A DNA stretch of 60,000 nt. It comes from Schmidtea polychroa (taxonomy: Eukaryota). Every line of letters starts with the position of its first letter. The first letter of the stretch is position 1. Shown in pieces: positions 13,190 through 45,360 of this stretch. The DNA lies in contig CM097885.1 of the NCBI GenBank assembly GCA_044892525.1, forward strand, positions 33,234,001 through 33,294,000, in the 5' to 3' direction. The notes below the pieces were generated by a model, which saw only the letters and a list, made by a program, of their open reading frames with translations, was not told the origin of the DNA and ran no database searches. A program made the position numbers and the translations under genes.

Positions 13190-13329
13190 ATATATACTAT
13201 GAGTTTATCCGACAGGATGTTTTGACCCCCTAAGGGTACAGGTCGTAAAGGTACTGGTCGTAAGGGTACTGGTCGTAAATGTATTAGTCGTAAGGGTACT
13301 GGTCGTAAGGATATTGTTAACACTCAACC
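13190..13329 (-). promoter_or_regulatory. conserved Polinton-associated module (15-bp repeats + palindrome + TATA), divergent copy
   Basis: TATATACT...TATCCGACAGGATGTTTTGACCCCCTAAGGGTA followed by about 6 GGTCGTAAGGGTACT-type units. Function is inferred. Confidence 0.55.
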
Positions 13330-14599
13330 ACCACCTACCCATTAACTAACAACTAAGTACTAACAACCAGCTAACAACTAGATACCAAGTACATCAACCA
13401 GCTACTAAGCATTATCAACCTACAACTATATAACAACAATCAGTAAACACTGTACCAACTACCAAATACAAGATACCAAGTACCAACAATCAACTAACAA
13501 CACATAAAAATAATAGCAATTAAATACAAAATATTCTTCATCGCATACACTATTTTCTTATCAAATTCTAAAAAGTCAACCAACTACTTACAACCAACAA
13601 CTATGTACTAACAAATTGATTTTTAAAAGCAAATACTCTTCACTTGAAAAATTGGATGAAAAATTAATTGAACTCAAGGCATCAATAACTAGGTAAAAAT
13701 TGATTAAATTATTGTAAAAAATTTAAATTATTCGAAATAAATATCATAAAAATTTAATTAATGGACAAGAAAAAATTCTAGTCATCCAGTAAATAAAAAA
13801 ACTACTGATCATTCAAGTTGAATCAACTAAGATAATAAATTAATAAGATAAGATCTAGTAGATAATTGATTTAGATTGAATAAATTAATTGAAATAAAAT
13901 TAATTTTAAGTATTTTTTTAAAAGTAATACATGTACTCAAATTGATTGACTGATTTCTCAATATATTCAAAAAATCAGTATAAATTCATTACAATTATCA
14001 AAGTCAGCAATCTACAATAAAAATAATTATCATTAAATTCCAAAAGAGACTAGATAGCTAATGATAACATCTAACAAACCAGTAAATTTATTTAAATGAC
14101 AATAATTGGTATATCCAAGTGAATTCTCCAATAAAATCATCTAAAAAGCATCAAATTTCCCTGAAATATCTATATCTTTTAAGATTAGTATCTTATCGAT
14201 AAGTACTTGTTAAAGATCATATATTCACCTCAAACTAACAAGATTCCTTAAAATCCCTTAAATGACTATATTTCAACCCTTAATTCATATTATTACAAAT
14301 ATTTCACTAAAATCATCTAAAAAGCATCAAATTTTCCTGAAATAATTCTATCTTTAAAGATTAGTATTTTATCGATAAATATCCTTAAAAGGTTATATAT
14401 TTCCCTCAGACTAATAAGATTGCTTAAAATCCCTTTAAATGACTATAATTCTAGCTTTAATTCCTATTATCACGAATATTATAAAACATGTAAAATAATT
14501 TGATCATTAACACTAAATAATTTATAAAATCTAATGATAAAAGCAGTTATAATTAAATTTTTATTCTAAACATAAATCACTCTATTTGAAATTTACAAT

Positions 14600-15720
14600 A
14601 ATTATTACTGTACAATATAACTGACTAGGTCCCATTGAAAGATTAAATTTATCCATTCAATAAAATATATTTCTTCAAATGATCATTTTTACCGATATTC
14701 AACCGATTTAATTACTAATTAAAATCACCCGATAGATTTCTTTCAATAAAGATCAATTTTATTTAGTTGTTGTCGATGTTTTAAGCCCATATTCTTCAAC
14801 TTTTGTCATTCTCCGCCTAAATAAAGATAAAAATAAATTAAAGTTGATATCAATCCCAATTATCTGTAAAGTTTTCATTGTCAAAACCAAGTAAATCGAT
14901 CATTATCTCTACTTAATAAACCATAAATCTAAATTAATATACAATGGATTAATCACAACCTAATAAAACGATATAATTATTATTGATTCATAACTGACTA
15001 ATGTATTGCAATTTCCTTAAAAACATTGATATTTTACCAACATCACCCTTAAAAAATCATATATTCCCATCTTAACCCATTCCTCATTAAATTTAACCGA
15101 CTATATCTCCCTTACAATGGTATATTCCCATCTTAACCGATCTTTCATTACATTTAACCGACTATATCCCCTTAAAAGATCATATTTTCCCCATCTTATC
15201 CGATCTCTCATTAAATCTAACCAACAATATCCCATCTTAACCAATCTCTCACCAAATATTTCTACCCCTTTAAACATCTAACCGAATATATCCTTCAATT
15301 CTACCCACTTGAATCCTCCTTTAATTCAATTCAGTCTTAAAATCTTTAAAGAACTTCAAAAATATGACTTAATTGTTATAGACACCAAATATTCTTCCAT
15401 TGAAATAATTTAGTAGCTATGTAGTAAGAGTTCACTAAAAGATCAAAAATCAATATTTTCTACAAATATTTACCATCAAATACTGGAGATGATATATATT
15501 GATTGATCATAATTCTTCATCGATTCAGCCAATCATTTTCAAGCAATAACAGCAAACTAAATTTCTTTATATCCTACAATAATTATCACGTAAATTTAAA
15601 GTCCCTGATAAAGTTAACTGGTTTCTTAGCTTATGTTTTTAAAGATCATCAATGTGTAAATATTCTTAGAAAATTATTGAAAAAAATTATCTAGTCAAAT
15701 ATATTACAAAGTTATCATCA
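14600..15720 (-). pseudogene. heavily decayed gene with ~60-nt internal repeats, shared by elements A and B
   Basis: Colinear homology with ~37650-38620 (e.g. TGTCAAAACCAAGTAAAT, CCATTGAAATAATTTAGTAGCT) and ~20-codon repeats at 15050-15290. No intact ORF remains. Confidence 0.4.
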
Positions 15721-16330
15721 AAAATTTATTCTATCACTTAATTATTAACCTAATTGTCAATGAAATTAATTTTTATTTTAAAACTATTCAATAAAATACA
15801 ACTAATTATCAAGAAATTAATTAAATTTAATTAAATTTATCACCATTAAAACTTTTAATCAGTCAACATGAAATTCTTAGAAAATTATTCAATATGCTCA
15901 TCAAAATTTATCCTATCACTTGATTATTGTACAAACTTTAATTATTAACCTCATTAAAAATAAATTTTTATTTAAAATTAAAAAACCAATCAATAAAAAT
16001 ACATTCAATTATCAAGAAATTAATTAAATTTACCTTAGAATTAGCATTAAATTACAGATATTCACAAAAAATTACGGAAATTCATGAAAATAATAGAAAT
16101 TCACAAAAATAATGGAAATTCACAAAATTGATAAAAAATCACAAAAATGATAGAAAATTACAAAAAATGATAGAAATTCATAAAAATGATAGAAATTCAT
16201 AAAAATGATAGAAATCCGCAAAAATGATAGAAATTTACTTGAATATTTACTAAAACCATCAACTCTAAAAATTATCAATGAATGCCTTAAACAAATTTGC
16301 CTAATTAATCATTCAAATAAAAGCATTAAA

Positions 16331-16437
16331 TACCTTTACGACTAATACCCTTGCGACATGTTGAATGTGAGTAGTACCCTTGTGAGCAATACCCATAGGG
16401 GGACAGAATATTTTGTCGGATAAACTCAGAGTATATA
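16331..16437 (+). promoter_or_regulatory. conserved Polinton-associated module
   Basis: TACCCTTG...TACCCATAGGGGGACAGAATATTTTGTCGGATAAACTCAGAGTATATA. Confidence 0.6.
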
Positions 16438-16605
16438 TTAATTAACTCATTCAAATTTTTCATTGAATTAGTAAAATTATCATAATTTCGATAAAAATTC
16501 TAAAGTGGTAAGCAATGTAAAGAGAATTATTCTTTAAACTTTGATAAAATTAACAATGAAGGTGGTAAGAATCATCATTAAAGTGAGGAAATTATTCATT
16601 ACTCG

Positions 16606-43526: not shown

Positions 43527-43620
43527 TGCATAAACTTTGCCTTGTCCTCTCTTGTCTTGATTTTTATAGTTTAAATATAAAAGTGTGTGTGATAGGTTTT
43601 ATTTACTAACCATAATTAAT

Positions 43621-43712
43621 ATACCCTTGCGATATGTTGAGTGTGAGTAGTACCTTTGTGAGCAATACCCATAGGGGGACAGAATATTTTGTCGGATAGA
43701 CTAGGAGTATAT
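43621..43712 (+). promoter_or_regulatory. conserved Polinton-associated module
   Basis: Full copy. Confidence 0.6.
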
Positions 43713-44912
43713 ACACCCATGTTAAACAAGGTATGTGTATATAGAATGTGTGTGTAAAATTATCGCTCCTTATTGACAACTTCCTGTAAAGGCAAACACA
43801 GAATACTGCAAACATAATAATACTCTACCCCATAACTTAGTATGTAAAAATTATTTAAGGTTTTTTCACTAATAATAATAATAATTATAATAATAATAAT
43901 AATAATAATAATAATAATAATAATAATAATAATAATAAAGTTTAATGGGTTGTGTGAGTGTAAATAATATTCTAGGTTTTCACGAATATTGATAATAATA
44001 ATGGTTTATGAGTGTTTTTATGTTTTTGACTAATATTTGCAATAATAATAATGGTTAATGAGTTGTGCATGTGTGTGTGTGTAGAAATATTTTAGGTTTT
44101 TAATATTGATAATAATAATTGTTAATGGGTTGTGTGTGTGTGTGTAAAAAAATATTTTATGTTTTCACTAATAATGATAATAATAATAAGTTTAATGAGT
44201 TGTATGTGTGTGTGTGTAAAAATATTTTAGGTTTTTAATATTGATAATAATAATTGTTAGTGGGTTGTGTGTGTGTGTAAAAAATATTTTAGGTTTTCAC
44301 TAATAATGATAATAATAATGGTTAATGAGTTGTGCATGTGTAAATAATATTTTAGGTTTTTGACTAATATTGATAATAATAATTGTTAATGGGTTGTGTG
44401 AGTGTAAATAATATTTTAGGTTTTTGACTAATATTTGCAATAATAATAATAATAATAATAAGTTTAATGAGTTGTATGTGTGTAAATAATATTTTAGGTT
44501 TTTGATATTGATAATAATAATAATAATGGTTAATGGGTTGTGTGTGTGTGTGTGTGTAGAAAATATTTTAGGTTTTTAATACTGATAATAATAATAATGG
44601 TTGAGGGGTTGTGTGTGTAAACCATATTTTAGATTTTTCATTAACAATAATAATAATAATAATAATAATAATAATAATAATAATAATAACTCCCGCGCGT
44701 GTTAATACTTTAAAAGAAAATATTGAAAATTTAAAAAATAATAATATTTATGCAAAGCATGTGCAATAATTATGTCTTTGTTAATTAAGTAAACTTTAGT
44801 GTCAAAATAAGTTTTTAAAATATTTTTAAATTTTAAAATACCGCAACTTAATATATTTTTGTTCTACCCCTTCATTGATTTAAGTTGGTCAGAATTTAAT
44901 AATAATTATATT

Positions 44913-45022
44913 ATACCCTTTGAGACATGTTGAATGTGAGTAGTACACCTTGCTACCATTACCCATATGAGCAATACCCATAAAGGGATAGAATATTTTG
45001 TCGGATAGATTAAGAGTATATA
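44913..45022 (+). promoter_or_regulatory. conserved Polinton-associated module
   Basis: Full copy. Its upstream block 44735-44915 is also present in element C at ~27200-27375. Confidence 0.6.
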
Positions 45023-45273
45023 TGATAATAATATTCCCGGTGCGCGTAATAATAAATAATAATAATAATAATAATAATAATAATAATAATAATAATAATA
45101 ATAATAATAATAATAATAATAATAATAATAATAATAATATTACTTTGAAATGTATGTTGTAGTGAGCACACCACTAATTATATGAGTTGAGCGTATATTT
45201 AAAGAATAATATTTAGAATTTAGAAAATTTTACCTTGAATATTTTTACCAGTACCTTTGTGAACAATAACCAT

Positions 45274-45360
45274 GTGACTTGTTGAGTGTGAGTAGTACCC
45301 TTGCTAGCAATACCCATAGGGAGACAGAATATTTTGTCGGATAAACTCGGTGTATATATA
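45274..45360 (+). promoter_or_regulatory. conserved Polinton-associated module
   Basis: Full copy. Confidence 0.6.

What the first reader, a model, noticed from the sequence alone, without database searches (positions are those of the whole stretch)
13190..45360. A conserved ~80-140 bp module repeated 16 times, only inside the Polinton-like elements
Seen: the architecture is 2-6 repeats of a 15-bp unit (TACCCTTACGACCAG / TACCCTTGTGAGCAA), then TACCCATAGGGG, the 16-bp palindrome GACA(A/G)AATATTTTGTC, and GGATA(A/G)ACT..GAGTATATA. There are 2 copies in A, 4 in C (2 partial) and 10 in B, in both orientations and with unrelated flanks. It stays well conserved while the neighbouring genes have decayed. 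It sits just 5' of the RING pseudogene (repeat side) and of the intron-containing gene (TATA side), and the next copy follows that gene's AATAAA. Inference: it may be a reusable, possibly bidirectional viral promoter delimiting gene cassettes, or an iteron+dyad origin or recombination site kept under cis selection.
Basis: partly seen in the sequence, partly recalled or inferred. Interest (0 to 1): 0.8.

Follow-up and report, generated by a model that had tools for sequence, protein, structure and literature searches.

The report
End-facing switch in Polinton repeats
A roughly 100-base DNA signal, present about 15,600 times in this animal genome, sits at the inner edge of the end repeats of one group of virus-like Polinton transposons and faces the element's tip; it likely binds proteins that prepare the ends for copying rather than switching on the element's genes, but this is untested.

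Summary
The module is real: 14 complete and 2 truncated copies in the window, but B's ten are five mirrored pairs, so 11 contexts. The genome holds 15,588 core matches (control 0). 207 of 210 sampled hits lie beside Polinton or satellite sequence; it is no MITE or SINE. In gene-carrying Polintons with B-, C- or E-type ends it sits at the inner edge of the terminal inverted repeat, 0.5-3.8 kb from the tip, TATA end outward (45 of 46 end-motif hits), mostly downstream of the last gene. Gene-carrying A-, D- and 805-type Polintons lack it. Gene-less palindromic satellites are patchworks of end fragments joined at it. ORF starts are not enriched beside it, the palindrome does not covary (16 of 98 perfect), and it does not match host U6/U2/7SL upstream DNA or the rDNA spacer. 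Best reading (0.4): a polar, promoter-like protein-binding platform that serves the element's ends, comparable to end-proximal signals of adenovirus and poxvirus. No binding or transcript was shown. The scan noted this module before on other DNA of this genome (e1-9309415); its place in gene-carrying elements is what this report adds.

The parts
13191..13313 (-). module, A left copy, five 15-bp repeats, non-palindromic core variant, TATA end toward A's left tip
16331..16437 (+). module, A right copy, TATA end toward A's right tip
22898..22912 (-). repeat-only remnant at the broken left side of C
24091..24139 (-). module cut after core position 19 (C)
26629..26705 (+). module (C), followed by an AAT tract
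27374..27452 (+). module cut after core position 19 (C)
28509..28600 (+). module at the inner edge of C's right terminal repeat
33542..33648 (-). module 1 of B's left arm, inner edge of the B-type terminal repeat as in gene-carrying B elements
33875..33983 (-). module 2 of B's left arm
35187..35278 (-). module 3 of B's left arm
37055..37146 (-). module 4 of B's left arm
38840..38947 (+). module 5 of B's left arm, facing the palindrome centre
39949..40056 (-). mirror copy of module 5
41754..41845 (+). mirror copy of module 4
43622..43713 (+). mirror copy of module 3
44914..45022 (+). mirror copy of module 2
45252..45358 (+). mirror copy of module 1
7862..21264 (.). element A: gene-less satellite with A-type Polinton ends, AGT termini, 6-bp target duplication; arms 8338-12048 and 16606-20316 are 99.9% identical and both hold the same broken hAT transposon
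31903..47268 (.). element B: gene-less palindromic satellite with B-type Polinton ends, 6-bp target duplication, arms 99.2% identical around a 670-bp centre
22898..30040 (.). element C: satellite with a C/B-like right terminus at 30040; no left terminus found
25823..26380 (-). broken RING-finger gene, also carried next to the terminal repeat of gene-carrying C-type Polintons
7409..7838 (-). polymerase (pPolB) remnant of an older D-type Polinton (repeats near 6904-7360 and 30356-30849) into which A and C inserted

Best explanation
The module sits at the inner edge of the terminal inverted repeat of B-, C- and E-ended Polintons with its TATA end facing the tip, and it is likely a promoter-type landing pad on double-stranded DNA whose job is to activate the element's ends rather than its genes. 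Shown: position, polarity, fixed spacing, conservation above its flanks, absence from gene starts, and reiteration in gene-less satellites. Inferred: a sequence-specific protein (host or element-coded, not identified) binds the 15-bp repeats and the 37-bp core, TBP or the element's TBP-like protein binds the TATA, and the resulting open chromatin or non-coding transcription over the repeat makes the ends accessible for excision and protein-primed copying. Also inferred: satellites arose by capturing end fragments, with the module as the shared homology at which ends and cassettes are exchanged, and keep it because it helps them in cis, as defective viral genomes keep cis signals.
For: All 7 ends of gene-carrying or polymerase-carrying B-type elements picked without reference to the module (L049-L052, both ends of L062 by terminus pattern; L168 in the unbiased sample) carry it once, facing out. 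First module inward of a terminus motif faces the tip in 45 of 46 hits over 39 hand-picked sources; the exception is a false terminus inside pPolB. The inverted repeat ends 38-136 bp inward of the core in 5 of 7 end pairs. Core identity 89% between contexts with unrelated flanks (flanks 54% and 60%); within four context classes core diversity 0.014-0.048 against 0.023-0.214 in flanks. Context-specific core variants persist, and changes fall on a few positions (19 of 37 invariant among 14 recurring variants), the pattern of a binding site. The same gene-side flank joins B-, C- or E-type outer repeats at the module. TATA-like hexamer 80-97% conserved per position at a fixed distance. Precedent: a poxvirus end-proximal element that is a promoter and is needed for processing the ends (PMC8956199, passages); Polintons gain H3K4me3 and RNA when derepressed in a planarian (PMC8532177, passages; bears only if the host is related, which I inferred and did not test).
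Against: No binding, transcript or chromatin data. Gene-carrying A-, D- and 805-type Polintons have none (0 at the ends in 17 A-type, 2 D-type, 2 805-type stretches), so it is not essential to Polintons, and A-ended satellites carry it 2.8-4.2 kb from tips whose helper lacks it. The TATA is moved 6-8 bp or lost in some gene-carrying copies (L112, L062, L113) and may partly be the seed of the AAT tract that follows in 39 of 98 contexts. In the module-3 class the upstream flank (0.023) is as conserved as the core (0.028). In 2 of 7 end pairs the repeat runs 547 and over 700 bp further in. One E-ended copy (L164) has a 106-aa ORF starting 338 bp inward and reading away from the repeat side. No element-coded protein tracks the module: TBP-like genes occur in lineages with and without it, and the 139-aa ORF has a homologue in the D type.
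Confidence: 0.4

Rival explanations
1. Packaging signal: the repeats are bound by the element's packaging ATPase or a partner, as the A repeats just inside the adenovirus terminal repeat are, and satellites pile it up to be encapsidated.
For: Reiterated sites just inside the ends; kept in gene-less satellites of near helper length; adenovirus packaging domain of seven A repeats bound by IVa2 and L4-22K (PMC4346872, passages).
Against: A- and B-type ATPases are identical at 176 of 207 residues yet only B has the module; distance from the tip varies 0.5-4.2 kb; a packaging signal needs no TATA.
Confidence: 0.15
2. Promoter of cargo cassettes: each module drives the segment on its TATA side, or both sides, up to the next poly(A) signal.
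For: Promoter-like build; module 4 is followed by a 1.8-kb cassette with donor-like motifs and an AATAAA about 100 bp before module 3; two GGTAAG donor-like motifs follow the inward-facing copy in both A and B.
Against: In gene-carrying elements the TATA side is an AAT tract and repeat arrays; ORF starts 13/155 and 14/155 against 18% background (spliced genes with short first exons would be missed); terminal genes usually read toward it.
Confidence: 0.13
3. Neutral passenger: a piece of old terminal repeat spread by the elements' own duplication and kept alike by gene conversion among 15,000 copies.
For: Huge copy number; arm-to-arm copying is evident (A's arms 99.9% with a shared hAT insertion); not needed by A-type elements.
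Against: Context-specific core variants are stable, not homogenised; variation is position-specific; spacing kept in about 140 of 150 distinct contexts.
Confidence: 0.12
4. Polar transcription roadblock or insulator: it stops read-through from the last genes into the repeats and, as a facing pair, stops hairpin RNA across satellite centres.
For: Terminal genes and poly(A) signals mostly end at its repeat side; facing pairs flank the centres of palindromic satellites; one repeat variant shares 7 letters with the mammalian Sal box (PMC11358750, passages).
Against: No similar repeat in the host rDNA spacer (best nhmmer E 3.6); a 7-letter match across phyla is weak.
Confidence: 0.1
5. Internal replication origin (repeats plus dyad plus AT-rich unwinding tract) or site-specific recombination site.
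For: Origin-like order of parts, AAT tract after the core in 39 of 98 contexts; segments are exchanged at it.
Against: Dyad perfect in 16 of 98, no compensatory changes; folding z-scores -0.5 to 1.7; breakpoints scattered; Polintons are thought to start copying at their tips (PMC8097293, passages).
Confidence: 0.08
6. Independent MITE, SINE tail or Helitron end that merely inserts into Polintons.
For: TA-rich end and AAT tail; 2 of 210 hits (L119, L129) lack recognisable satellite sequence nearby.
Against: 207 of 210 hits in Polinton context, strict polarity, coupled flanks, no target duplication seen; 200 kb of unbiased DNA gave 1 copy, in a Polinton repeat.
Confidence: 0.02

Closest known systems
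Polinton/Maverick terminal inverted repeats (PMC8097293 and PMC6431247, passages read)
   Same: Host elements have AGT-type ends, 6-bp target duplications, pPolB, rve integrase, A32 ATPase and capsid-like genes.
   Different: The passages read describe only end motifs; no internal, polar, repeated cis element at the repeat's inner edge is described there, nor found.
Poxvirus concatemer resolution site (PMC8956199, passages read)
   Same: Conserved element near both ends that is built as a promoter and serves DNA processing; two copies flank an inverted-repeat junction, as facing module pairs flank satellite centres.
   Different: Poxvirus ends are hairpins, the site is short and AT-rich and is read by a viral RNA polymerase; here ends are protein-primed and integrated, the module is 0.5-4 kb from the tip, and no sequence likeness is claimed.
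Adenovirus packaging domain, A repeats (PMC4346872, passages read)
   Same: Repeated sites just inside the terminal repeat of a protein-primed linear genome with a related packaging ATPase class.
   Different: Present at both ends, much further in, with a unique core and TATA; absent from a sister lineage with an 85% identical ATPase.
Defective interfering genomes that keep cis signals (PMC6855363, passages on baculovirus DIs; reiteration of origins recalled)
   Same: Gene-less derivatives keep and multiply a cis element of the helper.
   Different: These are fixed in the germ line as transposon families; no interference shown.
snRNA-type (PSE plus TATA) promoters
   Same: Fixed-spaced core about 70 to 25 bp before a would-be start, ending in TATA.
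   Different: No similarity to host U6, U2 or 7SL upstream DNA; no RNA gene follows.

Membership tests
Polinton/Maverick terminal-repeat component | lies within the inverted repeat of elements with AG/AGT ends and 6-bp target duplication | tested here: met
   L049/L050, L051/L052, L062, L115/L116 and window A, B
Polinton/Maverick terminal-repeat component | host element codes for pPolB, integrase, ATPase, capsid proteins | tested here: met
   ORF maps and Pfam/tblastn labels; capsid names for the B type rest on gene order and size, not on a Pfam hit
Polinton/Maverick terminal-repeat component | universal in Polintons | tested here: not met
   absent from A-, D-, 805-type ends; none in viral or metagenome contigs by exact pattern
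Viral gene promoter (e.g. the early motif of PgVV, 10.1101/2022.07.28.501842) | enriched at fixed distance before start codons | tested here: not met
   13/155 and 14/155 against 18% background; none between core genes
Viral gene promoter (e.g. the early motif of PgVV, 10.1101/2022.07.28.501842) | transcripts start after the TATA | not testable with these tools
   no raw RNA reads on offer
snRNA-type / type-3 Pol III promoter | shares the host PSE found before U6 and U2 | tested here: not met
   18 comparisons with U6, U2, 7SL upstream DNA, none beyond shuffles (best 35 of 300); the host PSE itself was only weakly defined (U6 vs U2, 102 of 500)
snRNA-type / type-3 Pol III promoter | a small RNA gene starts 25-30 nt after the TATA | tested here: not met
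   Rfam scan of 7800-47400 gave only the Alu-like piece 1.4 kb away; downstream DNA differs between contexts
Iteron-plus-dyad origin / cruciform site | dyad symmetry kept by symmetric or compensatory change | tested here: not met
   16 of 98 perfect, no compensatory pair; no folding signal
Iteron-plus-dyad origin / cruciform site | initiator binds and replication starts there | not testable with these tools
   bench test
Site-specific recombination site | crossovers at one position | tested here: inconclusive
   7 truncations at 5 positions; clean crossovers inside the core would be invisible
MITE / SINE | dispersed in unique DNA with own target duplications | tested here: not met
   207 of 210 hits in Polinton context; about 1.4 Mb of 781 Mb sampled, mostly chosen around hits
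TTF-I/Reb1-type terminator array | same site occurs downstream of host rRNA genes | tested here: not met
Adenovirus-type packaging signal | bound by the packaging ATPase; needed for encapsidation | not testable with these tools
   only indirect: ATPase 85% identical in a lineage without the module

The most novel reading that the evidence does not exclude
The module is a Polinton counterpart of the poxvirus resolution site: an end-facing promoter whose firing extrudes inverted repeats into cruciforms that the endonuclease-VII-like domain of pPolB (Pfam PF02945, E 5e-4, below cut-off) cuts. Facing pairs at satellite centres would then mark junctions that are resolved into hairpin-ended half molecules, giving Polintons and their giant palindromic satellites an undescribed transcription-triggered excision and copying route, with the module doubling as the joint at which ends are swapped between lineages.
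Probability: 0.1. Interest if true: 0.85.

Novelty: new variant of a known kind. Interest (0 to 1): 0.52.

Why it matters
How animal Polintons leave the chromosome and start copying is not known, and no internal cis signal has been described for them in the papers I could search. A short, polar, constrained element shared by several end types, kept by gene-less satellites and present about 15,600 times gives a concrete bait for pull-down, footprinting and chromatin mapping that needs no virus. If it is a promoter-like site, some 20 copies per megabase could also shape host chromatin and piRNA production.

Tried and rejected
Exact-pattern scans of viral and metagenome contigs found nothing; related-locus searches gave no usable ends (none; three contigs of 1.5-2.1 kb, not studied), so conservation in other species is untested. 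Host snRNA promoter match and rDNA terminator match: negative. Module as inverted repeat of a TA-inserting transposon: rejected because flanks are coupled and most copies are tandem; at L129 the upstream neighbour is an unrelated high-copy repeat end, not an empty site. Helitron end (hairpin plus CTRR): CTAG is not conserved. Element-coded binding partner: the 139-aa ORF had no Pfam or Atlas hit and has a D-type homologue. The 105-aa ORFs in the B-type repeat look like by-products of a repeat unit; not tested further. pPolB tree (19 rows picked from 39 qualifying loci): B and C form one clade, the E row is a long unplaced branch, so gain or loss of the module cannot be ordered. My notebook count '41 of 42' for polarity was a miscount; one search gives 45 of 46. 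No supplements were read; Repbase entries and subscription papers could describe these repeats.
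Full report
Observation. The module is in the window as described: 14 complete copies and two cut after core position 19, plus a repeat-only remnant at 22898-22912. Twenty simulated windows gave 0 matches against 14 observed. Element B is a 7.1-kb inverted duplication at 99.2%, so its ten copies are five contexts. 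A (7862-21264) and B (31903-47268) have AGT termini and 6-bp target duplications read directly from the sequence; C has a right terminus at 30040 and no left one that I could find. A and C lie inside the remnant of an older Polinton.

Abundance. A 33-letter core pattern matches 7,374 places in the 781-Mb genome and a looser 31-letter one 15,588, with 0 for the reversed control in both. I sampled about 1.4 Mb: around terminus hits, around listed module hits, beside pPolB hits, and 20 evenly spaced 10-kb stretches. Of 210 profile hits (overlapping stretches counted twice), 207 have Polinton or satellite sequence within 700 bp; one of the other three lies inside a satellite, one (L119) beside a decayed Polinton, one (L129) has no recognised context. 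The test is partly circular, because the satellite references are window segments that flank modules, though these lie between verified termini. The unbiased 200 kb held one copy, in a Polinton terminal repeat.

Home position. The genome holds many long pPolB frames. Gene-carrying Polintons fall into end types. Those with B-type ends, found by terminus pattern and not by the module, carry pPolB, integrase, ATPase, a TBP-like gene and two capsid-sized ORFs, and have exactly one module per end and none between the genes. C- and E-ended elements, reached through module hits, show the same place, with one to three copies. The first module inward of a terminus motif has its TATA end toward the tip in 45 of 46 hits from 39 sources that I chose for holding both; the exception is a false terminus inside pPolB; distances are 0.5-4.2 kb. 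In 5 of 7 end pairs the inverted repeat stops 38-136 bp inward of the core; in two it runs 547 and over 700 bp further. The last gene usually reads toward the module's repeat side: pPolB (L050, L069), the RING gene (L115), a 166-aa ORF (L116) and, by my reading, a small acidic gene (L049). L164 is an exception, with a 106-aa ORF reading away. On the TATA side come an AAT tract (39 of 98 contexts) and arrays of TCAAGGTCA and TGASTCA (20 and 4 in B's left repeat, 0 in A's); their likeness to nuclear-receptor and AP-1 sites is recalled, not tested. Gene-carrying A-, D- and 805-type elements have no module at their ends (17, 2 and 2 stretches). B and C polymerases form a clade; the E row is unplaced.

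Satellites. Gene-less A-, B- and C-ended elements are mosaics of a few segments in differing order with modules at most joints. The same gene-side flank meets B-, C- or E-type outer repeats at the module; the E-ended L164 has an ATPase identical to the B type at 207 of 212 residues. The RING cassette of C is also found beside the repeat of gene-carrying C elements, with a repeat remnant on its far side. Palindromic satellites turn 27-570 bp beyond an inward-facing module, so facing pairs flank their centres (eight cases, not all independent). The simplest history, inferred, is repeated capture of end fragments, the module being the shared homology for exchange.

Constraint. Over 98 distinct contexts most core positions are 93-100% conserved. 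Between contexts with unrelated flanks the 37-bp core is 89% identical, flanks 54% and 60%; within classes 96% against 80% and 87%. Within four classes core diversity is 0.014-0.048 against 0.023-0.214 for flanks, the module-3 upstream flank being the one segment as conserved as the core. Class-specific core variants persist, which argues against plain homogenisation. The dyad is not what is kept: 16 of 98 perfect, no compensatory change, four mispairs in the A-left type, no folding signal. The invariant letters are the TACCC box, the TAG, and the run ending in GGATA beyond the dyad. The TATA is well kept in general but shifted or lost in some gene-carrying copies.

Tests of named models. Gene promoter: ORFs of 60 aa or more start within 400 nt on the TATA side in 13 of 155 contexts and within 500 nt on the repeat side in 14 of 155, against 18% at random places; spliced genes could be missed. 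Pol I-type terminator: nothing alike in the rDNA spacer. Site-specific cut: truncations scattered. Packaging: the A-type ATPase is 85% identical yet its element lacks the module.

Mechanism. I commit, at 0.4, to an end-facing, promoter-type protein-binding platform that serves the element's DNA cycle. Shown are place, polarity, constraint, reiteration and exchange. Inferred are the binding, the role of TBP, any transcription, and the benefit to satellites. The broader claim, that it is a functional double-stranded cis element of these Polinton ends, I put near 0.8.

Literature. Passages read: PMC8532177, PMC6431247, PMC8502044 (lists a TBP-like gene in a figure legend on viruses of non-animal hosts), PMC8097293, 10.64898/2025.12.11.693146 (92), PMC6855363, PMC11358750, PMC4346872, 10.1101/2022.07.28.501842 (110), PMC8956199. 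Searches found no description of this module; one search searched three of its words directly and found 0 papers. No supplements were read, and Repbase and subscription papers are outside the library. That the host is a planarian is my inference from composition, four large contigs and earlier scan notes.

Verdict. Real, very abundant, under constraint, and better described as a polar component of Polinton terminal repeats than as a cassette promoter or dyad origin. New variant of a known kind (end-proximal cis elements of linear DNA viruses); function untested; interest 0.52.

Noticed in passing
window 35640-35689 (-) and mirror 43211-43260 (+): SRP (7SL) Alu-domain-like piece, Rfam RF00017 E 7.8e-6, 82% over 39 nt to the host SRP 5' end; a 33-letter stretch of it occurs 1,586 times; the surrounding 420 nt are 97-99% alike in 18 other B-type copies. 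Noted before as e1-7879908.
   Followed up: partly
L049 3794-4258, L034 2061-2537, L026 1414-1863: Gene-carrying Polintons of several lineages code for a 149-158 aa TBP-like protein (PF00352, E 2e-14 to 3e-16). Noted before as e1-8073903 and e1-8146204.
   Followed up: partly
L026 274-708: A D-type Polinton carries a Bcl-2-family gene (PF00452 over cut-off).
   Followed up: no
window 9800-12000 and 16650-18850: The same broken hAT transposon stands in both arms of A at 99.9% identity, a sign of arm-to-arm copying after insertion.
   Followed up: no
window 31903-33430 and 28820-30040: B- and C-type terminal repeats hold dense arrays of TCAAGGTCA and TGAGTCA; likeness to NR5A/ERR and AP-1 sites is recalled.
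   Followed up: no
L050 3554-7651, L035, L025, L024: pPolB of all four lineages scanned has a weak endonuclease VII match (PF02945, E 2e-4 to 4e-3, below cut-off).
   Followed up: no
window 16505-16580 and 39015-39115: Two GTGGTAAG motifs about 70 and 135-150 bp after the TATA are kept between A- and B-type satellites, and arm junctions in A and B fall just after the second.
   Followed up: no
L023/L024, L065, L062: Polymerase-only elements: mirror pairs of an 805-aa pPolB around a central terminus, and an 8.2-kb B-ended element with only pPolB between two modules.
   Followed up: no
L068 4198-9058: Three tandem copies of a 192-aa double HMG-box ORF inside a repeat with AGT-type ends.
   Followed up: no
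L083 (U6 array, 793-bp unit): Each U6 unit also holds a tRNA-like sequence on the opposite strand, read by eye.
   Followed up: no
L129 1968-2030 and L119 6619-6681: Two modules without recognised satellite flanks; L119's lies about 710 bp before a 202-aa ORF with a hydrophobic start that reads away from it.
   Followed up: partly
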